From Aeromicrobium sp. (GTDB lineage: Bacteria > Actinomycetota > Actinomycetes > Propionibacteriales > Nocardioidaceae), in the NCBI GenBank assembly GCA_045806885.1, contig JBJMIJ010000013.1:150110-214109 (forward strand): a stretch of 64,000 nt of DNA. The letters run 5' to 3'. The notes beneath the pieces are model-generated. The model saw nothing but the letters and a program-made list of their open reading frames with translations, was not told the DNA's origin and did not search any database. The position numbers were made by a program, and so were the translations under genes. Below are positions 37,686-48,901 of the stretch, piece after piece. Position 1 is the stretch's first letter; each line of letters starts with the position of its first letter.

Positions 37686-38087
37686 TCAGGACCCGTCGAG
37701 GTCGGCGATCAGCGCCTTGACCCGCTCCTTGATCGCGTCGCGGATCGGCCGGACGGCGTCGATCCCCTGCCCAGCCGGGTCATCCAGGTCCCAGTCCTCG
37801 TACCGCTTGCCCGGGTAGAACGGGCAGGTGTCGCCGCACCCCATCGTGATGACGACGTCCGATTCCTGCACGGCGGCGTCGGTCAGGAGCTTGGGCTGCC
37901 CGCCCGCGATGTCGATGCCCTCTTCGGCCATCGCCTGGACCGCGACCGGATTGATCTGGTTGCCGGGCTGGGACCCGGCGGACACCACGTCGATGCGGTC
38001 GCCGGCCAGGTACTGCAGGTAGCCGGCAGCCATCTGCGACCGGCCGGCGTTGTGCACGCAGACGAAGAGAACGGTGGGCTTGGTCAT
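37686..38087 (-). CDS. arsC: arsenate reductase, LMW-PTP type
   Basis: CVHNAGRS (CX5R P-loop) and downstream Cys pair GCGDTCP. ATGA overlap with the channel gene. Confidence 0.85.
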   Translation of the reverse strand: MTKPTVLFVCVHNAGRSQMAAGYLQYLAGDRIDVVSAGSQPGNQINPVAVQAMAEEGIDIAGGQPKLLTDAAVQESDVVITMGCGDTCPFYPGKRYEDWDLDDPAGQGIDAVRPIRDAIKERVKALIADLDGS

Positions 38088-38761
38088 GGCAGGGCTCTCG
38101 TCGGGAAGGTGAGGCGGACGAACAGCAGGCCCAGCAGGCCGCCGAGCGCCTGCATGAGCACGAAATACAGGACCGAGCTCGGCGCGATGCCGGCGAAGGT
38201 GTCGGAGAACATCCGGGCGACGGTGACCGCCGGGTTGGCGAAGCTCGTGGACGACGTGAACCAGTAGGCCGCGGCGATGTACCCACCCACGGCGAAGGCG
38301 ATGGTCTCGGAACGACCGGTGCGGATCGACCCGAAGATGACGACCACCAGGCCGAAGGTGGCGACGACCTCTCCGAGCCAGAGGCCCGAGCCGGAACGCT
38401 CGTGGCCGGAGAAATGAACGGCCGGCAGGTCGAACATCAGGTTCGCGACCATGGCACCCAGGATGCCGCCTGCCAGCTGCGCGACGATGAGAACCAGGGC
38501 GCTGACGACCTTCAGTTGGCCAAGGGCCACCTCAATGAGCGTGACGACCGGATTGAAGGCGGCCGAGACGGGTTGCAAGGCCAGGATCAGGGCGACGAGT
38601 GCAGCGCCCGTTGCGACGCTGTTCTCCAGGAGCTGCAGGCCGACGTCGTCGGACAGCCGGCTGGCCATGATTCCCGACCCGATGACGGTCGCGACCAGGA
38701 AGGCGGTGCCAACGAACTCGGCAGCGACCTTCCGCGGAAGGTGATACGTCGGGGGCGCCAT
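38084..38761 (-). CDS. MIP-family channel (aquaglyceroporin, AqpS-like arsenite channel)
   Basis: ATG 38761. NPV (AAFNPVVT) and NPA (SFANPAVT) boxes. Six TM. Confidence 0.8.
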   Translation of the reverse strand: MAPPTYHLPRKVAAEFVGTAFLVATVIGSGIMASRLSDDVGLQLLENSVATGAALVALILALQPVSAAFNPVVTLIEVALGQLKVVSALVLIVAQLAGGILGAMVANLMFDLPAVHFSGHERSGSGLWLGEVVATFGLVVVIFGSIRTGRSETIAFAVGGYIAAAYWFTSSTSFANPAVTVARMFSDTFAGIAPSSVLYFVLMQALGGLLGLLFVRLTFPTRALP

Positions 38762-39114
38762 CAGGCTCCCCCGATCAGCGCCGCGAGGTCGGCCAGGGCG
38801 TCTCCGCGCACCGCGTAGTACACCCACGTCGCGCGCTTCGTCCGGTCGAGCAGGCCCGCCTCGTGCAGGACCTTGAGATGGTGGCTGATCGTCGGCTGCG
38901 ACAGGTCGAAGGCCTCCTGCAGCTCGCACACGCAGGCCTCCCGCCCTTCATGCGCCGCGACGAGCGACAACAGACGCAGCCGGACGGGGTCGGCGATGGC
39001 CTTGAGCAGCGGCGCAATGCGCTCGGCCTGGTCGGCAGACAGCGGGGACGACGTCAGAGGCGAACAGCACGCGACGGTCTCGATCGGCGTGAGCTGAAGA
39101 ACGGACTTCGACAC
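38761..39114 (-). CDS. arsR: ArsR/SmtB family metalloregulator
   Basis: ACVCELQ As(III)-site-like CVC, wHTH LSQPTISHHLKVLHEAGLL. GTG 39114 preferred, because the longer form to ATG 39189 would translate the AT-rich operator region. Confidence 0.8.
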   Translation of the reverse strand: MSKSVLQLTPIETVACCSPLTSSPLSADQAERIAPLLKAIADPVRLRLLSLVAAHEGREACVCELQEAFDLSQPTISHHLKVLHEAGLLDRTKRATWVYYAVRGDALADLAALIGGA

Positions 39115-39131
39115 ACATACATATTGACACA

Positions 39132-39174
39132 CGTCGATATAGCGTGGTGCGATGTATCGATGAACATCTATATA
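39132..39174. promoter_or_regulatory. AT-rich ars control region with direct repeats TATAT(C/A)GA(C/T)G spaced 33 nt (minus-strand reading)
   Basis: Plus-strand cgtcgatata at 39132..39141 and catctatata at 39165..39174. Local GC is far below the surroundings. Confidence 0.4.
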
Positions 39175-39187
39175 CGAGGAGGTCGAC

Positions 39188-39226
39188 ATGTGCTGCGATG
39201 ACTGCTGCCCCGGCGGCTGCTGCTGA
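39188..39226 (+). CDS. 12-codon cysteine-rich micro-ORF MCCDDCCPGGCC
   Basis: GAGGAGG (39176..39182), 5-nt spacer, ATG 39188, six TGC codons, TGA 39224. Followed by a GC-rich stem-loop. Confidence 0.35.
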   Translation: MCCDDCCPGGCC

Positions 39227-39252: not shown

Positions 39253-40581
39253 TCAGCGCGGCGCGAGCGAGATCTCGGCCGGGTAGACGTCGAACGCGTA
39301 CGGGAGCCGTTGGTTCCGGCGCAGGCGTGGGCCCGCTGTCAGTTTGGGCTCCGCCTGCGTGACGAGCTGTCCGAGGAAGGCCTGCCCGAGGAAGATCGAC
39401 AGTCCAGCGCCGGGACATCCCTGCGGGCCATGGCTGAAGAAGTTGAAGGACCAGTCGGAACCCGCGTTGCCCTCGCTCCACTCCTGCGGCGCGAAGTCGT
39501 CGGCGTACGGGATTCGTCCGCGATTGCGGTGGTTGAACAGGTTGTGAATGAGCAGCGGCGTGCCCGCCGGGGTCTTCTGGCCGTTCTCCCAGCGGTAGTC
39601 CTCGGCCTGGACGCGGCCGAACAACGCCGTCGTGGGCCAGAGGCGCATGGCCTCCAGGATGCATCCGGCCAGATACGTCGACTCGGTGACCGTCTTCACG
39701 GTGGTGAGCTTCTTGGAGCCGATCTCGTCCCGGGCACGCTGCAGCGCATCGGGATGTGTCGCCAGCAACGCGAGCACCCTGAACAGGTTGGTCGGCAGAG
39801 TGTCGCCCATGGCGAACAGCCAGTGGATGAGCTGGCCGGGAACATCGGTCTCGGCGTCCGCGGGTGCCCCCGCGATCATGCCGGTCAGCGCGTTCGCGTC
39901 AGGGGTGTCGACGTATGCGGCGATGTGCGCGTGGAAGCGGTCGTAGCCGGCAGCCGGCTTGCCCGGCATCTTGTTGCCGGCGGCCATCAGCTCGCCCAGC
40001 TGCGCGGTGAGCTCCGTGTCGTCCGCCGCCGCATCGCCGAAGACGACGCGTCGCGCGAGTCGCTGGAAAGCGGCGTTGAGGTCGTCAAAGCGCAGCGGAC
40101 CCTCGCCGGCCAGCAGGTGATCGGCCGTCTCGACCGCGATGGTGGCGAAACGACGCGCCAACGGGTGTGCGGGCGACTCCGGCTTCAGCACCGCCTCGGC
40201 GAAGGCCCGGCGCTTGGCCCACACGTCGCCCCGCGAGATCGTCAGGGCATCGGGCTGGAACGCCGCCATGCCCTTGCGCTTGGCCTCGGGATCGGCGGCG
40301 AAGGGACTGGGTGATCCCCCGAGGACCGTTCTGATGTCGTCCGGATGCGTGAGCAGCAGGGTCTCCTCAGCGCCGACGCGCACCCAGAACGGGTCCGGGC
40401 CGTACTTGCGGGCCAGGCCTTCGACCAGCCGGTAGGCCAGGGCCTCGGCCGGCAGCTTGCTCACCACCGTGACCACGGCCTCCCGCTTGCGGAACAGACC
40501 CTGGGCGACGTTGGGAATGCCCACCTGCGCGGTGAAGCGAACGCCCTCGACGATCGAGGCGTGCTTGAAGTCCAGCGTCAT
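39253..40581 (-). CDS. cytochrome P450
   Basis: ATG 40581. Haem loop FSHGPQGCPG, ExxR (EAMR), I-helix AMGDT. Confidence 0.85.
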   Translation of the reverse strand: MTLDFKHASIVEGVRFTAQVGIPNVAQGLFRKREAVVTVVSKLPAEALAYRLVEGLARKYGPDPFWVRVGAEETLLLTHPDDIRTVLGGSPSPFAADPEAKRKGMAAFQPDALTISRGDVWAKRRAFAEAVLKPESPAHPLARRFATIAVETADHLLAGEGPLRFDDLNAAFQRLARRVVFGDAAADDTELTAQLGELMAAGNKMPGKPAAGYDRFHAHIAAYVDTPDANALTGMIAGAPADAETDVPGQLIHWLFAMGDTLPTNLFRVLALLATHPDALQRARDEIGSKKLTTVKTVTESTYLAGCILEAMRLWPTTALFGRVQAEDYRWENGQKTPAGTPLLIHNLFNHRNRGRIPYADDFAPQEWSEGNAGSDWSFNFFSHGPQGCPGAGLSIFLGQAFLGQLVTQAEPKLTAGPRLRRNQRLPYAFDVYPAEISLAPR

Positions 40582-40603
40582 GCCCCCACCTTGATGTGCA
40601 CGG

Positions 40604-42433
40604 TCAGCCCCACGGCAGGTAGGACTTGACCGTGTCCGCCGCGCGCACGATGACCGGCTTCTTGCCCGGCTCGGTGGCACCCAGCTCGTGCCACGGCGCG
40701 AAGACGCGCTCGACGTCGCCGATGACCGGCTCCAGCTCCGGGTAGTGCCGCAGCAGGACGTCCTTCATCGATGTGTGGTTGACCCAGTCGAAGCCGGTTT
40801 TCGTGTAGATCTCCGGGCGGAAGTCCGTGGTGAAGAATCGGTCGCTCTTGAGCCGGCGCGACGCCATCAGGATGAAGATGCGGAACGCGGTGTCGGAGAA
40901 GCCGAAGCCCTTTGGCGGCTGCTCGGCCTGCATGCCGATCTGCAGGTCGACGGCGTCGACGTCGCCGTTGTAGATCTCGTTCATCTCCTTGGCCCACTGT
41001 TTGTTCGGCGTGATGTCGTCGATGCTCTTGCGCCGCGGCATCCGCAGGACTTCGCGGAAGTCGTTGTAGCGCGGGATGCCACGCTCGCGGTCGCGCACGA
41101 TGTCGAGCGTCGCGAGGTCGGTGATCTGGCCGTCGATGCGCGTCAGGTTGCGCAGAGCGTTCGGGTAGTTGTGCAGGCACACCGCCCCCGCGCTCGCCTT
41201 GCCGATGGAGTACCACTGGTCGCCCATCGTCATGCTGTCCATGAAGTCGCGGGTGAAGCGGCCCTGGATGTCGGTGAAGTACGCGTCGCGCAGGTGCTCG
41301 CCCGACTCCACCGAGTAGAAGGACCAGTCGTCCGGGATGAGCGGGTGCATCCGGTAGACCGACACGAACTCCTCGGTCAGCGAGAACGGTGCGCTGTGGT
41401 GGTCGGTTGCGGAGCCGATGATGCCGGAGAGCGTCTCGCTGTCGCCGATGCGGCCGATCTTGCCCTTGAACGTCTCGCCGAGGGCGCCGAACCAGTTGGC
41501 GTTCATGCCGATCTGCAGCGCCGGGTGCCGCAGGACGCAGGTCGTCCACTCGACGGTGTGAATCTTGGCGATGAGCGCCGAGACGACGAGAACGCCGAGC
41601 TCGAACAGGCGCTGGTCGCTCAGCTCCGGCTGCGCCTTCTTGATGGCCTCGACCACGGAATTGTGCTCGCGGGCGAACAGGGTGTGCAGCAGACCGGGAC
41701 CGAACCAGTAGTTCTCCTGCATGCCCGTCAGGTCGACGCCCGGGATGTCGCTCGCCGGCAGGCGGCCGTTGTCGTCGACCTTGATCTTGCCGTCGACGAA
41801 CGTGCGAATCGTGCCCTGCTTGTCGGCGCCGCTGCCGTAGATCTGCGAGCCGTCCCACCAGTGCGTCTCGGCGTTGGCGAACACGGGGGCCGGGCAGCCG
41901 TCCTTGATCTCGCCGTGCATGGGAATGGTCTCGCGGATCCGCATCGGGTTCTCGGGGAAGTCGTCGCCCGGCTGGAGCGGGATCTCGATGACGTGGTCGG
42001 CAAGGCCGTTGCCGTGGAAGAACCAGTTGTGGTTCTCAAACTGCAGCCAGGCCGCGCCAAGCGCGTTGAGGATGCCGGCCGGCTTGAAGTCGTCGCGCGC
42101 CATCAACACCCGGCTGATCTCGCGCGGGTCGGGCGTCAGCAGCCGCTTGCGATCGACGATCGTCTTCTCGATCGGCGCGTTGCGACCGAAGCCCGTGCCC
42201 TTCGCCCCCATCGCCGGGCAGCCGAGGTCGTTGTACGTGCCATCCGGCATGCGGGCCGTGAGCGCCTCCTCCGGCGGCTCGGCGCTGCCCCCCTCCGGAC
42301 GGATGTCCTCGTGCTCGAACAGGTTTTTCTCCCGCAGGTCGTCACGCTCCGACGACAGGGCCGACAGCTGCAGTACCAGTGAAGGGTGCTCGTACCACTG
42401 CAGATGGAGGGGGTTCGGGATCCGTGGGGTCAT
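40604..42433 (-). CDS. animal-haem-peroxidase superfamily protein, fatty-acid alpha-dioxygenase/COX-like
   Basis: ATG 42433 with AAGGAG 6 nt upstream. Distal-His motif ETHWWDGSQIYG and Tyr-x-x-His motif VYRMHPLIP. Confidence 0.75.
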   Translation of the reverse strand: MTPRIPNPLHLQWYEHPSLVLQLSALSSERDDLREKNLFEHEDIRPEGGSAEPPEEALTARMPDGTYNDLGCPAMGAKGTGFGRNAPIEKTIVDRKRLLTPDPREISRVLMARDDFKPAGILNALGAAWLQFENHNWFFHGNGLADHVIEIPLQPGDDFPENPMRIRETIPMHGEIKDGCPAPVFANAETHWWDGSQIYGSGADKQGTIRTFVDGKIKVDDNGRLPASDIPGVDLTGMQENYWFGPGLLHTLFAREHNSVVEAIKKAQPELSDQRLFELGVLVVSALIAKIHTVEWTTCVLRHPALQIGMNANWFGALGETFKGKIGRIGDSETLSGIIGSATDHHSAPFSLTEEFVSVYRMHPLIPDDWSFYSVESGEHLRDAYFTDIQGRFTRDFMDSMTMGDQWYSIGKASAGAVCLHNYPNALRNLTRIDGQITDLATLDIVRDRERGIPRYNDFREVLRMPRRKSIDDITPNKQWAKEMNEIYNGDVDAVDLQIGMQAEQPPKGFGFSDTAFRIFILMASRRLKSDRFFTTDFRPEIYTKTGFDWVNHTSMKDVLLRHYPELEPVIGDVERVFAPWHELGATEPGKKPVIVRAADTVKSYLPWG

Positions 42434-42503
42434 GCGTGCTCCTTGACGGTGGGGCTCGTTGTGCACTTTAGGCACTCGGACGGCTTGGTGGGCTCGATTC
42501 GGG

Positions 42504-43145
42504 CTAGGGGGTGCGGAGAGCGAAATATCCGATGCGCTCGAAGCGCGAGTCGCCCACCAACGACGGAACGCGGAAGAAGATCTTCCCGAGATAGGCGCCC
42601 GGGACGAGCTCGACCAGCTCGTCACGGATGCTCTTGATCACGAGCTTCGGGTTGTCCGGGACGCTCGCATAGTCGATGACGAGGACGCTGACGTCAGGGT
42701 CCTCGACGCCGGCCTCGACGTACGTGTTGAAGTCGAACGCGGACCTGCCGTCGGCGTCCGTCCGCATCCCGTAGACCGGCCACAGGATCTTGCCGACGAG
42801 GCGCGACGACTCGGTCATCCGGTTGTCGCCTGTCGATGAGTCCGCGTCGAAGCGCTTGCCTCGCCACGGCATCCACACGCTCGTCAGGGCTTTGACCGCC
42901 GCATCCAGCGCCCGGTTCGTTGTCGTCGCGACGAGGATCCCGTCGGTCGCTCCGTCGAGACCGGTCGGGACGGCGCCGGCCGCGAACAGCTCGTTGAGGA
43001 TTGGCTCAGCGGCATCCGTGTCGTGCTGCGCGAGGTCCTGCAGCGCGACGAGGATCGACCAGGCATCGTCCGCCGTGACCGCCGCGTCGCCGCGCAGCGC
43101 GTCGAGGGTGGACTGGGCGTCCGAGGAGAGCTGCGATGCCGTCAT
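42504..43145 (-). CDS. GXWXG / DUF4334-like protein
   Basis: ATG 43145. MPWRGKRFDADSSTGDN and C-terminal IDYASVPDNPKLVIKSIRDELVELVPGAYLGKIFF...YFALR resemble the two-domain family. Confidence 0.45.
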   Translation of the reverse strand: MTASQLSSDAQSTLDALRGDAAVTADDAWSILVALQDLAQHDTDAAEPILNELFAAGAVPTGLDGATDGILVATTTNRALDAAVKALTSVWMPWRGKRFDADSSTGDNRMTESSRLVGKILWPVYGMRTDADGRSAFDFNTYVEAGVEDPDVSVLVIDYASVPDNPKLVIKSIRDELVELVPGAYLGKIFFRVPSLVGDSRFERIGYFALRTP

Positions 43146-43220
43146 GGGACCCCCTGGTGCGCTGGCGAAACACGTGTGACCCACGTCACGGTGCGTGACT
43201 GAAGCACCCTAGCGCGCGGG

Positions 43221-44321
43221 TTGCCGGTGTGCCACGGTGGCGGAATGGGTGATCGGCTGGAGCGCGTCGCGACGCTTGTTGGCGAGCTGGCGGTCGAGGA
43301 GGCGGGGCTGCTGACCGGCCATCCAGTTGTCTTGTGGCCGAGCCTCTACTGCGACGCGATGGTCTTCGCCGACCAGGTCGCGGCATTGGCGGACACACAC
43401 CGTCTGCTCGTCCTCGATCCGCCCGGGCACGCACGCAGCGGCCTTCCGCCCGTCCGGTTCAGCCTGGCGGACACCGCGCAGGCCACCTTCCAGGTGCTGG
43501 ATGCCTTCGGCATCGAGCGGGCTGCATTGATCGGCGGCGCCTGGGGCGGGATGGTCGGCGTCCAGATGGCTGCGCTTCATCCGGCTCGGCTGTCTGCCAT
43601 CGTGCTCATCAACAGCCCACTTGACTGCTGGCGCGGATGGCAGCGCGTCGAGATGACCGGTCTGCTGGCCCTGATTCGCGTAGGCACCGGCACCGAACTG
43701 GACGGCCGGATCCTCAAAACCATCCTGGACGCCTACACCGCACCCCGCCGTGACCACCTCGACCCCGCCGAAGACCCGTACGAGACCCACGAACACAAGC
43801 AGGGCATCGCGTTCAGCCAGCTGCTCCAACACATCCCAACCGACCAGCTCCCCACCAGCGGTGGCACCCCCATCCGGGTCGTCGTCACCATCGACGAGTC
43901 AAAGCTGCAGTCGAAGGTGGCTGCAGCCACGTTGGCCACCGGCGAACGCATCTCCGCCGGCGAGCTGCGCCGGCTGGCCGCCAACCACGGCATCATCCCC
44001 ATGGTCCTCGGCAGCGATTCAGTGCCCATCGACCTCGGCCGCACCCAACGCCTCTTCACCAAAGCCCAACGCGACGCCCTGGCCGTCATGGACGGCGGCT
44101 GCACCGCCCCCGGCTGCGACCTGCCACCCAGTTGGTGCGAAGTCCAACACACTGATCCCTGGCAAACCGGCGGGATGACCAACCTCGACAACGCCACCCT
44201 GCACTGCAGCGCCTGCCACCACCGCGCAGACCAAGAACACTGGAAATACAAGAGAATCCGTGGCCGCATCCACATCAACCGCGGCAAAGGCTGGGAAACC
44301 AACCACCGGTATAGGCCCTAA
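43221..44321 (+). pseudogene. chimeric ORF: truncated alpha/beta-hydrolase (nucleophile Ser replaced, GGAWGG) fused in frame to the C-terminal half of a DUF222/REP13E12-type HNH endonuclease
   Basis: N-terminal ~165 aa are hydrolase-like (VVLWPSLYCD...LIGGAWGGMVG). The C-terminal ~190 aa carry GCTAPGCDLPPSWCEVQHTDPW...NLDNATLHCSACHH. Codon usage shifts (CAA/AAA/GAA, ACC-rich) from about 43710. Confidence 0.6.
43750..44321 (+). mobile_element. remnant of a DUF222-HNH (13E12-repeat-like) element; left boundary approximate (43700-43760)
   Basis: HNH motif and typical flanking sequence (IIPMVLGSDSVPIDLGRTQRLFTKAQRDAL). Lacks the N-terminal DUF222 half. Confidence 0.5.
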
Positions 44322-45195: not shown

Positions 45196-46737
45196 GTGAC
45201 CGAGCGGGCCAAGGGCTGGTACTACTCCAGCGTCGTGAGCCTGTTCGCCCTCGGGCTGCGGATGTGGCACCTCGACCGGCCACGCAGCCTGTCGTTCGAC
45301 GAGCGGTACTACGCCGAGAACGCCTGGTCGATGCTGCACGTCGGGTACGCGCAGGATTTCGTGGACGGCGCCGAGAAGCGCATCGCACACGGCGACCTCA
45401 CCAACCTCTTCGTCGTCGGCCAGCCCACGCAGGTCGTCCACCCGGACGCAGGCAAGTGGCTGATCGCGGTGGGCGAGGCGGCCTTCGGGTTCAACTCGTT
45501 CGGCTGGCGCATCGCGTCCGCGATCGTCGGCGCCCTCACCGTGCTGGTGGTCTGCCGGCTTGTCCTGCGGCTGACGCACTCCGTGCCGTTCGCTTGTCTC
45601 GCCGGCTTCCTCGTCGCGCTCGATGGCCTCCACCTGACGATGTCGCGGCTGGCGCTGCTCGACATCTTCGTCACGTTCTGGACGGTCTGCGCGGTCGCCT
45701 GCCTGGTCGCCGACCGCGACTGGATCGCGGCCCGCATCGTGGGCCCGGACGCCCGGTTCCGGGTCTGGCGACCCTGGCAGCTCGCCGCGGGCGTCTGCTT
45801 CGGCCTGGCCTGCGGCAGCAAGTGGAACGGCGTATACGCACTCGCTGCATTTGGCCTGACGATCGTCCTGTGGGAAGTCGTCCTGCGCCGGTCGCGCGGT
45901 GACGGCCGCCCCATCCGGACCACGCTCGCCGTCGGGCTCCCCGCCTTCGGCTGGCTGGTCGTCGTCGCAGCTGCCGTCTACTTGGTGACGTGCCTCGGCT
46001 GGCTCGTCAGCCACCAGGTCTACGAGCAGCGCTTCGGCCACGGCTACGGCGACGAGCCGAAGTGGGGCGCCTACGTCGACCATCCCGCCGCCGGCCCGGT
46101 GGGCCAGACGACGGACGCACTGCGCTCGCTATGGCACTACCAGGGCATGTCGTATCGCTTCCACACCGGCGAATACCTGGCAAAGCAGACACACCCCTAT
46201 GAGTCCCACGCCATCGGCTGGCTCGTGCAATGGCGCCCGGTGAGCGCCGCCGTGGACCTCCACCTGAAGGCCGACCGCTGCGGGGCGCCGAAGGGCTCGT
46301 ACTGCATGCGCGAGACCTTGCTGATGGGCAACCTCGCCGTGTGGTGGTCAGGTGTGCTCGCCGTGATCGTGTGTGCGGCCGCGTGGCTGAACCCGCGCCG
46401 GCAGCGGGCGGCAGCCACCGAACGCTGGAAGTACTCCGTCCCGGTCGTCGGCGTACTGGCCACGTGGCTGCCGTGGCTGCCGATCACCGATCGGCCCGTC
46501 TTCTCCTTCTACGCCGTGACGACGCTGCCGTTCCTCGCCATCGCACTCGCCCTGGTGCTGCATGCGGAGACGCAGCGAGCGAAGACCCCCCGGCAGCGCT
46601 ACCTGGCCGCGCTCAACGTCGGCCTGCTCGTCACACTGACCATCGCCGCGGCGGTCTACTTCTGGCCGATCTGGACGCACCAGCTCATCCCGTGGAACGC
46701 GTGGAACTCCCGGATGTGGCTGCGGACGTGGGTCTAG
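45196..46737 (+). CDS. pmt: dolichyl-phosphate-mannose--protein mannosyltransferase
   Basis: LGLRMWHLDRPRSLSFDERYYAENAW N-terminal loop with the DE motif. Polytopic. Divergent from rsmI, as in mycobacteria. Confidence 0.8.
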   Translation: MTERAKGWYYSSVVSLFALGLRMWHLDRPRSLSFDERYYAENAWSMLHVGYAQDFVDGAEKRIAHGDLTNLFVVGQPTQVVHPDAGKWLIAVGEAAFGFNSFGWRIASAIVGALTVLVVCRLVLRLTHSVPFACLAGFLVALDGLHLTMSRLALLDIFVTFWTVCAVACLVADRDWIAARIVGPDARFRVWRPWQLAAGVCFGLACGSKWNGVYALAAFGLTIVLWEVVLRRSRGDGRPIRTTLAVGLPAFGWLVVVAAAVYLVTCLGWLVSHQVYEQRFGHGYGDEPKWGAYVDHPAAGPVGQTTDALRSLWHYQGMSYRFHTGEYLAKQTHPYESHAIGWLVQWRPVSAAVDLHLKADRCGAPKGSYCMRETLLMGNLAVWWSGVLAVIVCAAAWLNPRRQRAAATERWKYSVPVVGVLATWLPWLPITDRPVFSFYAVTTLPFLAIALALVLHAETQRAKTPRQRYLAALNVGLLVTLTIAAAVYFWPIWTHQLIPWNAWNSRMWLRTWV

Positions 46738-47357
46738 GGCACGGTGACGCGCGCCGCCGCCTGGATGCCGGCGATCGCCAGCTCGACAAGTTGGGCGATG
46801 TCGGCAGCCGCGTCGGCCGGCGGCTTCGACGGCCGGACGACGTGCGACAGCACCAGCCGCACGATGGCCTCGGCAGCCATGTCCAGCTCAGTGGCGCTGA
46901 AGGGCAACGGCGAGTAGATCTCGATGACGTTGGCCCGCACGGCCTCGACCGCCGTGTCGACGATGAACCCGGAGTCGATTGTGAGCAGCTTGAGCAGCTC
47001 GTCGTCCGTCTCGTGCGGGATGGAGCCGAGGACCGTGCGCAGCAGCAGGTTCCGCTCGGCCTGCTCGAGGACGCCCTGGGCGGCTGACCGAATGCCGGCG
47101 ACCAGGTCGGTCTCGGCGGCAAGCCGCGCATGGACGAACGTGAGGAAGTCGAACAGCTCACGCTGGACGAGGGACTCGGCCAGCTGATGCTTGGTGCCCA
47201 GCTCGGTGTGCGCCGTCTGCCGGCTCACGCCCACGACCGCCGCCAGCTTGCCCATGGTGACCGAGCCCCAACCGGACTTCTCGATCAGCTGCTTGGCAGC
47301 ATCGAGCAGCCGCTCACGAATGGAGCCGGGCTTTGCGTCGGGCAGAGCGAGGTCCAT
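46734..47357 (-). CDS. TetR family regulator downstream of alkB-rubredoxin (AlkU-like)
   Basis: HTH MGKLAAVVGVSRQTAHTELGTKHQL. 12 nt after the rubredoxin stop. Confidence 0.8.
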   Translation of the reverse strand: MDLALPDAKPGSIRERLLDAAKQLIEKSGWGSVTMGKLAAVVGVSRQTAHTELGTKHQLAESLVQRELFDFLTFVHARLAAETDLVAGIRSAAQGVLEQAERNLLLRTVLGSIPHETDDELLKLLTIDSGFIVDTAVEAVRANVIEIYSPLPFSATELDMAAEAIVRLVLSHVVRPSKPPADAAADIAQLVELAIAGIQAAARVTVP

Positions 47358-47369
47358 GGCGCGGCCAGA

Positions 47370-47600
47370 CTACTGACTCGCCTGCGAGCGAGTCTCCGCC
47401 GAGATGATCTGGCCGTCCTGATCGTTGTGGACGAACTCCTCGATCGGGATGAAGTCGACCTGCTCGCGCACGCCGCAGTCGGGGCACGTCCATGCGGGGT
47501 CGATCTCGGCGAACGCCGTGCCCGCCGGCCACCCCTCGTGGGGGTCGCCGATGGCCTCGTCGTAGACGTATTCACAGTTGGGGCAGATGAACTGGCTCAT
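47370..47600 (-). CDS. rubA: rubredoxin
   Basis: ATG 47600 (ATGA overlap with the alkB stop). CPNC...CPDC iron site. Confidence 0.85.
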   Translation of the reverse strand: MSQFICPNCEYVYDEAIGDPHEGWPAGTAFAEIDPAWTCPDCGVREQVDFIPIEEFVHNDQDGQIISAETRSQASQ

Positions 47601-48826
47601 GCGGCCACCTCTTCGGACGCCTCCGGCACCGGGTACTTCGCCAGATACTTCGCAGCGGTCCGCGGATGCAGGTTGGCCTGCGAGATGTCGCCGTCGAAGT
47701 GTGCGACGACCTTCTTGTCCATGACCCGGCGCCAGAACGGCGTCGCGTAGGCAAGGACGATCATGCCCGCGTAGCCGGTGGGCAGCACCGGAGCCTGCGG
47801 GAAGTCGCGCAGCGCCTGGTACCGCCGCGTCGGGTTGGCGTGGTGGTCGCTGTGCCGCTGCAGGTGGTACAGCAGGATGTTCGTGCCGATGTTGTTGCTG
47901 TTCCAGCTGTGGCTGGGGTTGACCCGCTCGTACCGGCCGGAGTCGAGCATCTTGCGCTTCATGCCGTAGTGCTCGAGGTAGTTGACCGCCTCCAGCAGGC
48001 TGATGCCGATGGCCGCCTGAACGACCAGGTACGGGAGGATCTGCCAGGTCTGCAGGCCGAGCACGGCGTTCACGACCATGGCGGCGCCCCAAAGGATCGG
48101 CGTGAACATCCAGGCGTTGATCAGGTCGCTGTGGAAGCTCCACGGCGACTGGCCCTTGCGGGCGAGGCGCGTCTTCTCCAGGTCCCAAGCGCTCTTGAGG
48201 CTGCCGAGGACGGTGCGGGGCAGGAATTCGTAGATGGTCTCGCCGAGCTTGGAGCTGGCCGGGTCCGGCGGCGTGGCCACGCGGACGTGGTGGCCCCGGT
48301 TGTGCTCGATGTAGAAGTGGCCGTATGCCGTCTGCGCCAGCGCGATGCGGGCGTACCAGCGCTCGAGCTTCTCCTTCTTGTGGCCCAGCTCGTGCGCGGT
48401 GTTGATGCCGATGCCGGCGACCATTCCCATGCCAGTGGCCAGGCCGAGCTTCTGCACCCAGGTCAGCGACTCGGTGACCGTCCAGAGAGTGCCGCCGCCA
48501 AGCAGGTAGCAGCCCCAGAGGAAGCCGACGATCTGCAGCGGGATGAACAGGTAGGTGACCCAGCGGTAGAAGCGGTCGTTCTCCACCATCTCGATGATCT
48601 CGTCCGGGGGGTTGTTCGGATCGAGACCGAGGACGAGGTCCATCAGCGGAATGATGACGAAGACGAAGAACGGCCCGAAGAACCAGATCGGCGTCCAGTG
48701 GGTCGCGCCCCACATCGGCATGATGAGGAACGGGATCAGCGGGATGATGCCGCTCAGGATCCAGAAGTAACGCTTCGGGTCGCGCCAGGTGATCTTCTGG
48801 CCTTCTGCGGTCACTGCTTCATACAT
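47597..48826 (-). CDS. alkB: alkane 1-monooxygenase
   Basis: His boxes HELGHK, EHNRGHH and LQRHSDHH. ATG 48826 with GGGGAGA upstream. Confidence 0.9.
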   Translation of the reverse strand: MYEAVTAEGQKITWRDPKRYFWILSGIIPLIPFLIMPMWGATHWTPIWFFGPFFVFVIIPLMDLVLGLDPNNPPDEIIEMVENDRFYRWVTYLFIPLQIVGFLWGCYLLGGGTLWTVTESLTWVQKLGLATGMGMVAGIGINTAHELGHKKEKLERWYARIALAQTAYGHFYIEHNRGHHVRVATPPDPASSKLGETIYEFLPRTVLGSLKSAWDLEKTRLARKGQSPWSFHSDLINAWMFTPILWGAAMVVNAVLGLQTWQILPYLVVQAAIGISLLEAVNYLEHYGMKRKMLDSGRYERVNPSHSWNSNNIGTNILLYHLQRHSDHHANPTRRYQALRDFPQAPVLPTGYAGMIVLAYATPFWRRVMDKKVVAHFDGDISQANLHPRTAAKYLAKYPVPEASEEVAA

Positions 48827-48864
48827 GGAAAATCTCCCCTGCCGTTCAATACTGCTGACGAGCA

Positions 48865-48901
48865 CTTGACATCAACGTACGACATGTCAAGCAACTTGAC
48901 A
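48865..48901. promoter_or_regulatory. inverted repeat CTTGACAT-N11-ATGTCAAG plus a third CTTGACA copy; probable alkB operator/promoter
   Basis: 48865..48872, 48884..48891 and 48895..48901; 39-75 nt upstream of the alkB ATG. Confidence 0.5.

What the first reader, a model, noticed from the sequence alone, without database searches (positions are those of the whole stretch)
39253..43145. Operon pairing an alpha-dioxygenase/COX-like haem enzyme with a P450: a split bacterial counterpart of fungal Ppo / linoleate diol synthases
The 609-aa protein carries ETHWWDGSQIYG (distal His region) and VYRMHPLIP (catalytic Tyr and proximal His spacing). These are the hallmarks of the fatty-acid dioxygenase branch (plant alpha-DOX, COX, fungal LDS) of the animal haem peroxidase superfamily. 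Twenty-two nt downstream starts a P450 (FSHGPQGCPG). In fungi the same two activities are fused in one protein: the dioxygenase makes a fatty-acid hydroperoxide and the P450 domain rearranges it. Here the P450 keeps a normal O2-activating I-helix (AMGDT), so the chemistry may differ, for example hydroxylation or handling of the Cn-1 aldehyde or acid. A GXWXG/DUF4334-like protein lies 70 nt upstream on the same strand. The locus sits beside alkane and lipid oxidation genes. Bacterial oxylipin pathways of this type are poorly characterised.
Basis: partly seen in the sequence, partly recalled or inferred. Interest (0 to 1): 0.7.

Follow-up and report, generated by a model that had tools for sequence, protein, structure and literature searches.

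The report
Bacterial alpha-dioxygenase and P450 operon
This is a real three-gene operon in which a fatty-acid alpha-dioxygenase sits next to a cytochrome P450 and a small barrel protein; the dioxygenase-P450 pair recurs in dozens of actinobacterial species, I found no study of it, and it probably forms a bacterial lipid-oxidation pathway whose P450 step is still unknown.

Summary
Three minus-strand genes lie at the stated coordinates: a 213-aa protein (42504-43145), a 609-aa haem dioxygenase (40604-42433) and a 442-aa P450 (39253-40581). The gaps are 70 and 22 nt.

The haem protein is an alpha-dioxygenase, not a COX or LDS type. Its E-value is 5e-113 to rice alpha-DOX and about 1e-13 to COX. 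Both haem histidines, the catalytic Tyr and 12 of the 13 listed substrate-channel residues (including the carboxylate anchors) are kept, and all are invariant in 81 orthologues.

The pairing is not chance. In 80 species-representative genomes, a P450 orthologue lies within 6 kb in 73 of 77 informative loci. Usually it is under 10 nt downstream, sometimes in another order, and the flanks differ. The 213-aa protein accompanies it in about 64% of informative loci.

Corrections:
The true distal His is His135.
- No GXWXG/DUF4334 HMM match exists.
- The alkB neighbourhood is coincidental (0 of 80 loci).

Most likely the dioxygenase makes a 2-hydroperoxy fatty acid and the P450 takes over that product. 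More distant relatives are fused to catalase-related, P450 or caleosin domains. Four orthologues replace the Asp-Thr pair with Ala-Asn under purifying selection. A conventional monooxygenase role remains nearly as likely.

The parts
42504..43145 (-). Conserved 213-aa accessory protein (HYP). It has no Pfam family. The predicted structure is N-terminal helices followed by a beta-barrel.
   Evidence: ORF and translation. Exact database match P0241 and 566 homologues, all named hypothetical and without Pfam domains. No Pfam hit in any of 30 members. 49 invariant columns across the 30 members, including the WMPWxGK, GDNR and IRDELVE motifs. AF2 model with pLDDT 79.9 and pTM 0.81. Foldseek best match 4MVE (E 1.6e-4), followed by weak lipocalin, streptavidin and fHbp barrel matches. 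Lies immediately upstream of DOX in 44 of 74 informative loci.
42434..42503 (-). 70-nt spacer between HYP and DOX, carrying an AAGGAG ribosome-binding site 7 nt before the DOX ATG.
   Evidence: Sequence read. No terminator-like site in the spacer.
40604..42433 (-). 609-aa haem fatty-acid alpha-dioxygenase-like enzyme (peroxidase-cyclooxygenase superfamily).
   Evidence: PF03098 E 5.9e-90. PDB best hits are rice alpha-DOX 4kvj (E 5e-113) and Arabidopsis alpha-DOX 4hhr (1.5e-109), against COX at about 1e-13. 39% identity over 564 columns to rice alpha-DOX. His135, His292, Trp296, Thr297, Phe356, Tyr360, His363, Phe517, Phe520, Ile521, Ala524 and Arg526/527 match the rice functional residues and are invariant or nearly so in 81 sequences.
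40582..40603 (-). 22-nt spacer between the DOX stop codon and the P450 start codon.
   Evidence: Codon arithmetic. In orthologous loci the estimated spacing is mostly under 10 nt. The called genes overlap by 1-7 nt in three loci.
39253..40581 (-). 442-aa divergent cytochrome P450, the conserved partner of the dioxygenase.
   Evidence: PF00067 at 78 bits; only residues 250-408 align. A profile against PDB hits only the I-helix-to-Cys-loop half, best to 7wzl, CYP97, CYP3A, CYP4B1 and CYP102. ExxR (Glu310-Arg313), the Cys loop F-x-S-H-G-P-Q-x-C389-P-G with Gln387 invariant, and the I-helix FAMGD260T261 in 64 of 68 orthologues. Four orthologues carry Ala-Asn at that position.
43146..43244 (.). 99-nt divergent intergenic region upstream of HYP, the presumed promoter region of the operon.
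   Evidence: Sequence read. No sigma-70-like consensus was found, which is not informative for actinobacteria.

Best explanation
This is a co-transcribed two-haem lipid-oxygenation module.

Step 1 is strongly inferred from sequence. The 609-aa enzyme is a fatty-acid alpha-dioxygenase. A tyrosyl radical at Tyr360 is generated through the haem, which is bound by His363 (proximal) and His135 (distal). The radical abstracts hydrogen from C2 of a free fatty acid whose carboxylate is held by His292 and Arg527. O2 is then added to give a 2-hydroperoxy fatty acid.

Step 2 is inferred. The P450 encoded directly downstream takes over this DOX-specific, unstable hydroperoxide. It cleaves the O-O bond at its thiolate haem, either rearranging or dehydrating the product or using it as its own oxidant. 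Otherwise the hydroperoxide would decay to the Cn-1 aldehyde and CO2. On this reading the pair is a functional analogue of the fungal DOX-CYP fusions and of the cyanobacterial 10S-DOX plus catalase-related lyase.

Step 3 is weakly inferred. The 213-aa barrel protein binds or hands over the hydrophobic substrate or product.

In about a quarter of genomes an acyl-CoA oxidase gene follows the pair, which places the module in fatty-acid catabolism or remodelling.
For: - DOX identity: with every alpha-DOX catalytic and substrate-anchoring residue conserved in 81 orthologues.
- Coupling from the DOX side: a P450 orthologue lies within 6 kb of DOX in 73 of 77 informative species-representative loci. 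It is immediately downstream in 65, and four other gene orders occur against unrelated flanks.
- Coupling from the P450 side: two P450 orthologues picked independently are also adjacent to DOX, and their called genes overlap it.
- Discrete cassette: nucleotide similarity to the nearest loci (L001, L004) stops at the start of DOX and within about 20 nt of the P450 stop.
- Co-inheritance: DOX and P450 identities co-vary (Spearman 0.44, p 8e-5).
- Hydroperoxide hand-over at family level: among the 150 best representative clusters of this DOX family, 30 are fused to one class of extension. All three members of that class that were Pfam-scanned carry a catalase-related domain. One further cluster is fused to a P450 whose I-helix (AGAPLE) lacks the acid-alcohol pair, and one to a caleosin domain. 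These partner types are known from established oxylipin biochemistry to act on fatty-acid hydroperoxides.
- Variant orthologues: four operonic P450 orthologues (L075, L079, L081, L083) carry Ala-Asn in place of Asp-Thr. They remain full length, syntenic and under purifying selection (dN/dS 0.09-0.20). Asn at this position is the residue found in LDS/EAS, plant AOS and PGIS (PMC13049297).
- No recurrent ferredoxin or reductase family appears among the neighbours.
Against: - The Asp260-Thr261 acid-alcohol pair, the hallmark of conventional O2-activating P450s, is kept in 64 of 68 orthologues, including the window's.
- The nearest solved relatives are ordinary monooxygenases (CYP97, CYP3A, CYP4B1, CYP102). 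No CYP74, PGIS or TXAS is among the 60 listed hits.
- The four Ala-Asn sequences represent one evolutionary event.
- Missing redox-partner genes are common for actinobacterial P450s. ORFs under 70 aa were not clustered, and a motif scan gave only noise.
- No activity data exist for any member.
- The barrel protein is absent from about a third of loci and also occurs without DOX.
Confidence: 0.42

Rival explanations
1. The operon and the alpha-dioxygenase step are as above, but the P450 is an ordinary O2- and NAD(P)H/ferredoxin-dependent monooxygenase served by housekeeping redox partners. It would hydroxylate the same fatty acids, or oxidise or deformylate the Cn-1 aldehyde or the 2-hydroxy acid. 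The module would then be a catabolic alpha-oxidation plus hydroxylation route.
For: - The Asp-Thr pair is conserved in 64 of 68 orthologues, ExxR is intact, and the Cys loop is intact apart from Gln387 replacing the usual Arg/His.
- The closest solved relatives include enzymes that act on fatty acids (CYP4B1, CYP102), alongside CYP97 and CYP3A.
- An acyl-CoA oxidase gene follows the pair in 21 of 80 loci.
- The only fused P450 found in the wider family has lost the pair, whereas the operonic one has not. This suggests different chemistry.
Against: - The Cn-1 aldehyde is a generic metabolite that a dehydrogenase could handle, which fits poorly with a roughly 95% conserved, closely spaced DOX-P450 pairing.
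- Four orthologues keep the operon but carry Ala-Asn instead of Asp-Thr, under purifying selection.
- No recurrent redox-partner gene was found.
Confidence: 0.35
2. The pair does not act on ordinary fatty acids. It would tailor another carboxylic acid, for example a branched or mycolic-type lipid, a sterol side chain or a secondary metabolite. The barrel protein would act as the specific carrier.
For: - A HYP homologue in M. lacus stands alone next to hsa and mce4-type (cholesterol-catabolism-type) genes.
- A second DOX copy in one genome sits next to a thiolase-like gene and a carotenoid-cleavage oxygenase.
- DOX is unusually conserved, at 74-92% identity across two actinobacterial orders.
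Against: - 12 of the 13 substrate-channel residues defined for rice alpha-DOX with palmitate are identical, and the thirteenth change is conservative (Met to Leu) (residues from PMC8720084).
- The flanks carry no PKS, NRPS, terpene or other biosynthetic genes.
Confidence: 0.12
3. The haem protein is a plain peroxidase used for oxidative-stress defence. Its adjacency to the P450 would reflect shared regulation only, with no metabolic hand-over.
For: Database annotation is "peroxidase family protein". The Pfam family is named animal haem peroxidase.
Against: - Similarity to true peroxidases is marginal (lactoperoxidase E 8e-15, over 174 residues only), against full-length E 5e-113 to alpha-DOX.
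- The catalytic Tyr, the fatty-acid carboxylate anchors and the channel residues are all invariant.
- The pairing persists through several gene-order changes.
Confidence: 0.04

Closest known systems
Plant and cyanobacterial fatty-acid alpha-dioxygenases (rice and Arabidopsis alpha-DOX, PDB 4KVJ/4HHR; CalDOX and LepDOX, PMC8720084)
   Same: Same fold and full-length homology (39% identity to rice, E 6e-122). The distal and proximal His, the catalytic Tyr, the His/Arg carboxylate anchor, the C2-positioning Thr and 12 of 13 channel residues are identical. Residue numbering is almost the same as CalDOX (H131/H361 against H135/H363 here). Kim et al. 2021 already placed actinobacterial sequences with the cyanobacterial alpha-DOXs in their tree.
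   Different: No actinobacterial member has been characterised in the literature I could search. The residue after the distal His is Asn rather than Asp (plant sequences). This gene is locked to a P450, and often to a barrel protein, in an operon, whereas the characterised alpha-DOXs were studied as stand-alone enzymes.
Fungal DOX-CYP fusion enzymes (Ppo proteins; linoleate diol, allene oxide and epoxy alcohol synthases; reviewed in PMC13049297)
   Same: A peroxidase-cyclooxygenase-type dioxygenase is paired one-to-one with a P450. In the fungal enzymes the P450 consumes the hydroperoxide made by the dioxygenase. Four bacterial orthologues carry Asn at the I-helix position where LDS and EAS have Asn.
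   Different: Here there are two separate genes, not one polypeptide. The DOX is of the alpha-DOX type, attacking C2 of saturated or unsaturated acids, rather than an 8-, 9- or 10-DOX acting on linoleate. Most of these P450s keep the Asp-Thr pair and have Gln, not His, two residues before the Cys ligand. No specific homology between the bacterial P450 and the fungal CYP domains was shown.
Nostoc punctiforme linoleate 10S-DOX with its neighbouring catalase-related 10S-hydroperoxide lyase.
   Same: It is a bacterial, unfused, two-gene arrangement of a COX-like dioxygenase with a second haem protein that processes its hydroperoxide. The catalase-related partner type is also the commonest fusion partner in the wider family of the window's DOX (30 of 150 representative clusters fall in that extension class).
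   Different: The partner here is a P450, not a catalase-related protein. The dioxygenase here is alpha-DOX-like rather than 10S-DOX-like.
Tcur_1030 of Thermomonospora curvata (PDB 4MVE), an uncharacterised protein; for the 213-aa protein only
   Same: It is the best, and the only significant, structural match to the predicted barrel domain (Foldseek E 1.6e-4, probability 1.00, TM 0.54 normalised to the target).
   Different: Sequence identity is 16%, and a profile search of PDB does not find it. The window protein has an extra N-terminal helical region of about 55 residues. Neither protein has a known function.

Membership tests
Fatty-acid alpha-dioxygenase (alpha-DOX clade of the peroxidase-cyclooxygenase superfamily) | Animal-haem-peroxidase (PF03098) catalytic domain over the full length | tested here: met
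   E 5.9e-90, residues 61-568 covering profile positions 2-523 of 530.
Fatty-acid alpha-dioxygenase (alpha-DOX clade of the peroxidase-cyclooxygenase superfamily) | Closer to characterised alpha-DOX than to COX or to true peroxidases | tested here: met
   Rice alpha-DOX E 5e-113 and Arabidopsis 1.5e-109, both full length. COX-2 scores about 5e-13 and lactoperoxidase 8e-15, over short stretches only. 39% identity to rice. LDS and 10S-DOX have no solved structures and were not compared directly.
Fatty-acid alpha-dioxygenase (alpha-DOX clade of the peroxidase-cyclooxygenase superfamily) | Catalytic Tyr and proximal His in a Y-x-x-H motif (rice Tyr379/His382), plus the distal His (rice His157) | tested here: met
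   Tyr360, His363 and His135 align to these residues and are invariant in 81 sequences.
Fatty-acid alpha-dioxygenase (alpha-DOX clade of the peroxidase-cyclooxygenase superfamily) | Carboxylate anchor His311/Arg559 and C2-positioning Thr316, with the remaining substrate-channel residues (list taken from PMC8720084) | tested here: met
   His292, Arg527 and Thr297 are present. 12 of the 13 channel residues are identical and Met325 becomes Leu306. All are at least 80/81 conserved.
Fatty-acid alpha-dioxygenase (alpha-DOX clade of the peroxidase-cyclooxygenase superfamily) | Converts fatty acids to 2(R)-hydroperoxy acids or Cn-1 aldehydes | not testable with these tools
   Requires enzyme assays.
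Fungal DOX-CYP fusion enzymes (Ppo/LDS/AOS/EAS) | Dioxygenase and P450 domains in a single polypeptide | tested here: not met
   A stop codon and a 22-nt spacer separate the two ORFs. Orthologues are likewise separate genes.
Fungal DOX-CYP fusion enzymes (Ppo/LDS/AOS/EAS) | P450 is self-sufficient and has lost the acid-alcohol pair (Asn, Thr or a non-polar residue at the axial I-helix position, per PMC13049297) | tested here: inconclusive
   The window P450 and 64 of 68 orthologues keep Asp-Thr. Four orthologues have Ala-Asn. Because 8R- and 9R-AOS also keep a Thr, the motif alone does not decide the question.
Fungal DOX-CYP fusion enzymes (Ppo/LDS/AOS/EAS) | DOX domain of the 8-, 9- or 10-DOX (linoleate) type | tested here: inconclusive
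   No LDS sequence was available for direct comparison. Indirectly, the full set of alpha-DOX-specific C2-positioning residues argues against this feature.
Cytochrome P450 superfamily | PF00067 match, ExxR in the K-helix and an F-x-x-G-x-x-x-C-x-G haem-thiolate loop | tested here: met
   78.4 bits against a cutoff of 22.8. Glu310-x-x-Arg313 and Phe382...Cys389-Pro-Gly391 are present and conserved. Gln387 replaces the usual Arg/His.
GXWXG / DUF4334 proteins (PF14231 / PF14232), for the 213-aa protein | HMM match to either Pfam model | tested here: not met
   No hit for the window protein at E<=1, nor for any of 30 family members at E<=5. HMMER's filters drop most hits above E about 0.1.
GXWXG / DUF4334 proteins (PF14231 / PF14232), for the 213-aa protein | A literal G-x-W-x-G motif | tested here: not met
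   The invariant motif is W-M-P-W-x-G-K, that is P-W-x-G.
GXWXG / DUF4334 proteins (PF14231 / PF14232), for the 213-aa protein | Shared fold | tested here: inconclusive
   The predicted barrel's best match is 4MVE. I could not establish the Pfam family of 4MVE with these tools.

The most novel reading that the evidence does not exclude
The trio would be a bacterial oxylipin pathway built like the plant LOX-AOS-AOC route. The alpha-dioxygenase makes a hydroperoxide from O2 alone. The P450 uses that enzyme-made hydroperoxide as both substrate and oxidant, needing no NAD(P)H or redox partner. This gives a short-lived intermediate such as an alpha-lactone, epoxide or 2-oxo species. The conserved barrel protein then captures that intermediate and steers it, as allene oxide cyclase or dirigent proteins do, towards a defined product, possibly a signalling or volatile lipid of environmental mycobacteria and Nocardioides.
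Probability: 0.12. Interest if true: 0.8.

Novelty: new variant of a known kind. Interest (0 to 1): 0.58.

Why it matters
Among bacteria, alpha-dioxygenases have been characterised only in cyanobacteria, as far as the papers I read report. Dioxygenase-P450 partnerships are described there only as fungal fusion proteins.

This locus shows that a tightly conserved, unfused alpha-DOX/P450 cassette, often with a third family-less protein, is widespread. It occurs in soil and freshwater Actinobacteria, including many Mycobacterium and Mycolicibacterium species. There it is annotated only as "peroxidase", "cytochrome P450" and "hypothetical protein".

If the P450 consumes the 2-hydroperoxide, three things would follow. 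It would define a new fate for alpha-DOX products. It would give a prokaryotic model for how DOX-CYP systems arose. It could also offer reductant-independent P450 chemistry for fatty-aldehyde or hydroxy-acid biocatalysis.

The natural Asp-Thr to Ala-Asn variants provide a ready-made mechanistic experiment.

Tried and rejected
1. GXWXG/DUF4334 assignment of the upstream protein. Pfam scans of the protein and of 30 homologues were negative, and a profile search of PDB found nothing meaningful. A literature search for DUF4334, GXWXG, 4MVE or Tcur_1030 gave nothing useful. The claim is downgraded to "unassigned barrel protein".

2. Link to the alkane hydroxylase. alkB-rubredoxin-tetR is real in the window, but alkB is absent from all 80 related loci. 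Rejected as coincidental.

3. Dedicated redox partner. Clustering of neighbouring ORFs of 70 aa or more found no recurrent ferredoxin or reductase. A regex scan for ferredoxin Cys motifs returned only out-of-frame noise and is uninformative.

4. AlphaFold model of the P450. Mean pLDDT was only 62.6 from a shallow alignment, so no fold search was run on it.

5. A conserved regulator. A PucR-like regulator lies divergently upstream in Skermania, Gordonia and N. kongjuensis. It is found in only 5 of 80 genome loci and not in the window.

6. An alternative partner in the four P450-less loci. The neighbours there are unrelated: a metal ATPase, a beta-lactamase, a flavoprotein, and a thiolase plus carotenoid oxygenase.

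7. Literature. Five searches found no report of a bacterial alpha-DOX-P450 operon. This shows absence from the searchable library only. A search for 7WZL, the closest solved P450, found nothing.

8. NCBIfam. There was no family for the DOX or for HYP, and only sub-threshold hits for the P450.

9. The window's P450 could not be located on a public contig by exact look-up.

Full report
**1. What is in the sequence**

The window has about 67% G+C and the codon-position G+C pattern of a high-G+C actinobacterium. Three ORFs lie on the minus strand between 39253 and 43145.
- A 213-aa protein (HYP) lies at 42504-43145.
- A 609-aa protein (DOX) lies at 40604-42433.
- A 442-aa protein (P450) lies at 39253-40581.

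The start codons are supported in several ways.
- The P450 and HYP appear in the protein collection at exactly these lengths and 100% identity (P0121 and P0241).
- The best DOX relative is also 609 aa long.
- An AAGGAG ribosome-binding site sits 7 nt before the DOX ATG.

No terminator-like structure lies in either spacer.

**2. The haem protein is an alpha-dioxygenase**

Pfam gives An_peroxidase at E 5.9e-90 over the whole domain. Against all PDB sequences the three best hits are the rice and Arabidopsis alpha-dioxygenases. Their E-values are 5e-113 to 1.5e-109, and the alignments are near full length. The next hits are lactoperoxidase and the cyclooxygenases, at 1e-15 to 1e-11 over only 110-190 residues. 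Identity to rice alpha-DOX is 39% over 564 columns.

I mapped the functional residues listed for rice alpha-DOX in PMC8720084 (citing Zhu 2013, Goulah 2013 and Koszelak-Rosenblum 2008) through that alignment.

| Role | Rice alpha-DOX | Window DOX |
|---|---|---|
| Distal His | His157 | His135 |
| Proximal His | His382 | His363 |
| Catalytic Tyr | Tyr379 | Tyr360 |
| Stacking Phe | Phe375, Phe552 | Phe356, Phe520 |
| Carboxylate anchors | His311, Arg559 | His292, Arg527 |
| C2-positioning Thr | Thr316 | Thr297 |
| Remaining channel residues | Leu53, Arg57, Trp315, Ala331, Phe549, Ile553, Ala556 | Leu26, Arg30, Trp296, Ala312, Phe517, Ile521, Ala524 |
| Only change in the channel | Met325 | Leu306 |

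All of these residues are invariant or at least 80/81 conserved in the window protein plus 80 orthologues. The protein therefore meets every sequence-level criterion of an alpha-DOX. Its activity remains untested.

His191 in that motif aligns with Ala or Pro in the plant enzymes, although it is invariant within the actinobacterial clade. From my own knowledge of the superfamily, this stretch corresponds to the Ca2+-binding loop.

**3. The P450**

Pfam p450 scores 78 bits, but only residues 250-408 align. A 22-sequence profile likewise matches solved P450s only from the I-helix to the Cys loop. The best matches are 7wzl, CYP97 carotene hydroxylases, CYP3A4/5/7, CYP4B1 and CYP102. No CYP74, PGIS or TXAS appears among the listed hits. 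The protein is a divergent P450 family member.

Conserved features across 68 orthologues are:
- ExxR (Glu310-Arg313);
- an F-S/A-P-x-E-W variant of the PERF motif;
- the Cys loop F-x-S-H-G-P-Q-x-C389-P-G, in which Gln387 is invariant where Arg or His normally stands;
- the I-helix H-W-L/M-F-A-M-G-D260-T261-L-x-A-N265.

The AlphaFold model was poor (mean pLDDT 62.6) and was not used.

**4. The 213-aa protein**

It has no Pfam or NCBIfam match. None of 30 homologues hits GXWXG or DUF4334, even at E<=5.

It nevertheless defines a well-conserved family. There are 566 homologues, all named hypothetical, and the 30 aligned members share 49 invariant columns, including the WMPWxGK, GDNR, LWPxY, VIDY and IRDELVExxxGxYLGK motifs.

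AlphaFold (pLDDT 79.9, pTM 0.81) predicts about 55 residues of helices followed by a beta-barrel. Foldseek finds one significant match, the uncharacterised actinobacterial protein Tcur_1030 (4MVE, E 1.6e-4). Weak matches to lipocalins, streptavidin and the fHbp barrel follow. A small-hydrophobic-ligand barrel is a reasonable reading, but it is an unproven one.

**5. Is the pairing more than chance?**

A scan of one genome per species (185,579 species) found 191 loci that encode a DOX relative. The best 80 were kept, at 74-92% identity. They come from Aeromicrobium, Nocardioides, Marmoricola, Mycobacterium, Mycolicibacterium, Antrihabitans, Smaragdicoccus, Williamsia, Jatrophihabitans and many MAGs. 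Searching them with tblastn for the window's P450 and HYP gave these results.

| Position of the P450 orthologue relative to DOX | Loci |
|---|---|
| Immediately downstream, same strand (estimated spacing mostly under 10 nt) | 65 |
| Downstream with a spacing of more than 150 nt (an acyl-CoA oxidase gene lies between them in L006) | 2 |
| Upstream, same strand | 2 |
| Upstream, divergent | 4 |
| Uninformative (contig ends too close to DOX) | 3 |
| Absent within 6 kb | 4 |

That is 73 of 77 informative loci. Further points support a real association.
- Flanking genes differ widely.
- Nucleotide similarity to the two nearest loci stops at the start of DOX and within about 20 nt of the P450 stop.
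- Two P450 orthologues chosen from the P450 search alone are also adjacent to an An_peroxidase gene, and their called genes overlap it.
- Gordonia has the order HYP-P450-DOX.
- DOX and P450 identities co-vary (Spearman 0.44, p 8e-5).

An association that survives several rearrangements is the classical signature of functional coupling.

HYP lies immediately upstream of DOX in 44 of 74 informative loci and nearby in three more. It is a frequent but dispensable member of the cluster. In M. lacus it occurs without DOX, beside hsa and mce4-type genes.

An acyl-CoA oxidase gene (PF22924/PF01756) follows the pair in 21 of 80 loci but is absent from the window. alkB occurs in none of the 80 loci. The window's alkB-rubredoxin-tetR cluster (46734-48865) is separated from HYP by rsmI, a protein mannosyltransferase gene and a chimeric ORF, so that neighbourhood is incidental.

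**6. How it probably works**

Step 1, alpha-oxygenation of a free fatty acid to a 2-hydroperoxy acid, rests on the complete conservation of the alpha-DOX machinery.

For step 2, three observations favour the P450 acting on that hydroperoxide.

(a) More distant members of the same DOX family are often fused to other oxylipin-enzyme domains. Among the 150 best 50%-identity representatives (5033 hits in all), 92 have no extension of 200 aa or more beyond the DOX domain. Thirty carry one class of extension, and all three members of that class that I Pfam-scanned contain a catalase-related domain. Six fall in a class with lipoxygenase-domain hits. One is fused to a P450 (P0447), whose I-helix reads AGAPLE with no acid-alcohol pair. 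One is fused to a caleosin domain. From established oxylipin biochemistry, catalase-related proteins, such P450s and caleosins all process fatty-acid hydroperoxides.

(b) The hydroperoxide is the only DOX-specific product. According to PMC8720084 it decarboxylates spontaneously, so a closely linked downstream enzyme makes biochemical sense.

(c) Four operonic orthologues (L075, L079, L081, L083) have F-A-L-K-A260-N261 in place of F-A-M-G-D-T. They are nevertheless full length, 79-91% identical to one another, syntenic with DOX, and under purifying selection (dN/dS 0.09-0.20). An Asn at this position is what LDS/EAS, plant AOS and PGIS carry (PMC13049297).

Several points weigh against this model.
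- The Asp-Thr pair is retained in the other 64 orthologues.
- The nearest solved relatives are ordinary monooxygenases.
- The four variants reflect a single evolutionary event.
- A few true monooxygenases also lack the Thr (my own knowledge).

I therefore put the hydroperoxide hand-over model at about 0.42. A conventional O2/NAD(P)H-dependent monooxygenase acting on the same acids or on the aldehyde stands at about 0.35. The broader claim, that this is an alpha-DOX functionally coupled to its P450, I hold at about 0.8.

**7. Comparison with what is known, and novelty**

The DOX is a new member of the alpha-DOX family. Kim et al. (PMC8720084) noted actinobacterial sequences in a phylogeny but characterised only two cyanobacterial enzymes, and they do not mention a P450.

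The system as a whole resembles two known arrangements: fungal DOX-CYP fusions, and the Nostoc 10S-DOX plus catalase-related lyase pair. It differs from both. The dioxygenase is of a different type. The two proteins are unfused. The P450 mostly retains the conventional I-helix signature. A third, family-less protein is often present.

Oliw's 2026 review (PMC13049297) discusses only one prokaryotic DOX, the 10S-DOX. Five full-text searches found no description of this operon. I rate it a new variant of a known kind. It is interesting to oxylipin and P450 specialists and directly testable, but it is not conceptually unprecedented.

**8. Origin**

The nearest DOX relatives are an Aeromicrobium MAG (92%) and other Nocardioidaceae. 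The window probably comes from that family.

Noticed in passing
window 43245-44321 (+): This is a chimeric ORF lying divergent to the operon. An alpha/beta-hydrolase N-terminal half (profile positions 14-110 of 245) is joined in frame to the last 85 positions of a DUF222 domain plus an HNH nuclease. It looks like a recombination or deletion scar next to the cassette.
   Followed up: partly
window 37686-39189 (-): An arsenic-resistance set (ArsR regulator, MIP aquaglyceroporin, LMW-PTP-type ArsC) starts about 63 nt after the P450 stop codon on the same strand, with no predicted terminator. The same block is 76.6% identical in L001, where it lies upstream of DOX-P450. Read-through transcription is possible.
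   Followed up: partly
window 46734-48865 (-): This is an alkB - rubredoxin (47370-47600, overlapping the alkB stop by 4 nt) - TetR alkane-hydroxylase cluster. It is not linked to the DOX cassette in any other genome.
   Followed up: yes
proteins P0361-P0510 (representative search): The wider alpha-DOX-like family shows many domain fusions. Thirty of 150 clusters share one class of extension, N- or C-terminal, that is catalase-related in the three members scanned. Six fall in a lipoxygenase class. One cluster each is fused to a P450 (P0447), a caleosin domain (P0432) and an nSTAND NTPase (P0461). A further class of 7 has an extension of about 300 aa with no Pfam match.
   Followed up: partly
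L006, L014, L048-L081 (21 loci), e.g. L073 9174-11123: A gene of about 650 aa for an acyl-CoA oxidase family protein (PF22924, PF01756) directly follows DOX-P450. In L006 and L014 it sits directly after DOX (ahead of the P450 in L006; the L014 contig ends before any P450). The window has no orthologue.
   Followed up: partly
L075, L079, L081, L083 (P450 genes): A clade of freshwater Mycobacterium-like MAGs has the I-helix sequence FALKAN in place of FAMGDT, so Asp-Thr becomes Ala-Asn. The gene is still intact, operonic and under purifying selection.
   Followed up: yes
L084 6001-6609 (Mycobacterium lacus): Here a homologue of the 213-aa protein stands alone, without DOX or P450. It lies between hsaA/D/C/B-like genes, a GMC oxidoreductase gene and an mce (MlaE/MlaD) operon.
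   Followed up: no
L026 and L038 (both on OZ257262.1): One Mycobacterium MAG chromosome carries two DOX copies. One sits in the full HYP-DOX-P450 trio. The other lacks a P450 and is followed by a thiolase-like gene, a carotenoid-cleavage oxygenase (RPE65 family) and an HxlR regulator.
   Followed up: partly
L002 5856-7091, L085 4648-5823, L087 1716-2918: A PucR-like regulator (RsbRD_N, GGDEF_2, HTH_30) lies divergently upstream of the cluster in Skermania, Gordonia and Nocardioides kongjuensis. It is found in only 5 of the 80 genome loci and not in the window.
   Followed up: yes
window DOX residue 136 and P450 residue 387: There are two invariant departures from family norms. Asn follows the distal His, where the plant alpha-DOXs have Asp (from my own knowledge, a Ca2+ ligand in related peroxidases). 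Gln stands two residues before the P450 Cys ligand, where Arg or His normally contacts the haem propionate.
   Followed up: no
L055 (MAG labelled Burkholderiaceae) and P0035 (MAG labelled Thermoguttaceae): DOX orthologues of 78-82% identity sit in bins assigned to non-actinobacterial taxa. L055 carries the whole HYP-DOX-P450-ACOX arrangement typical of Mycolicibacterium. Binning contamination is more likely than horizontal transfer.
   Followed up: no
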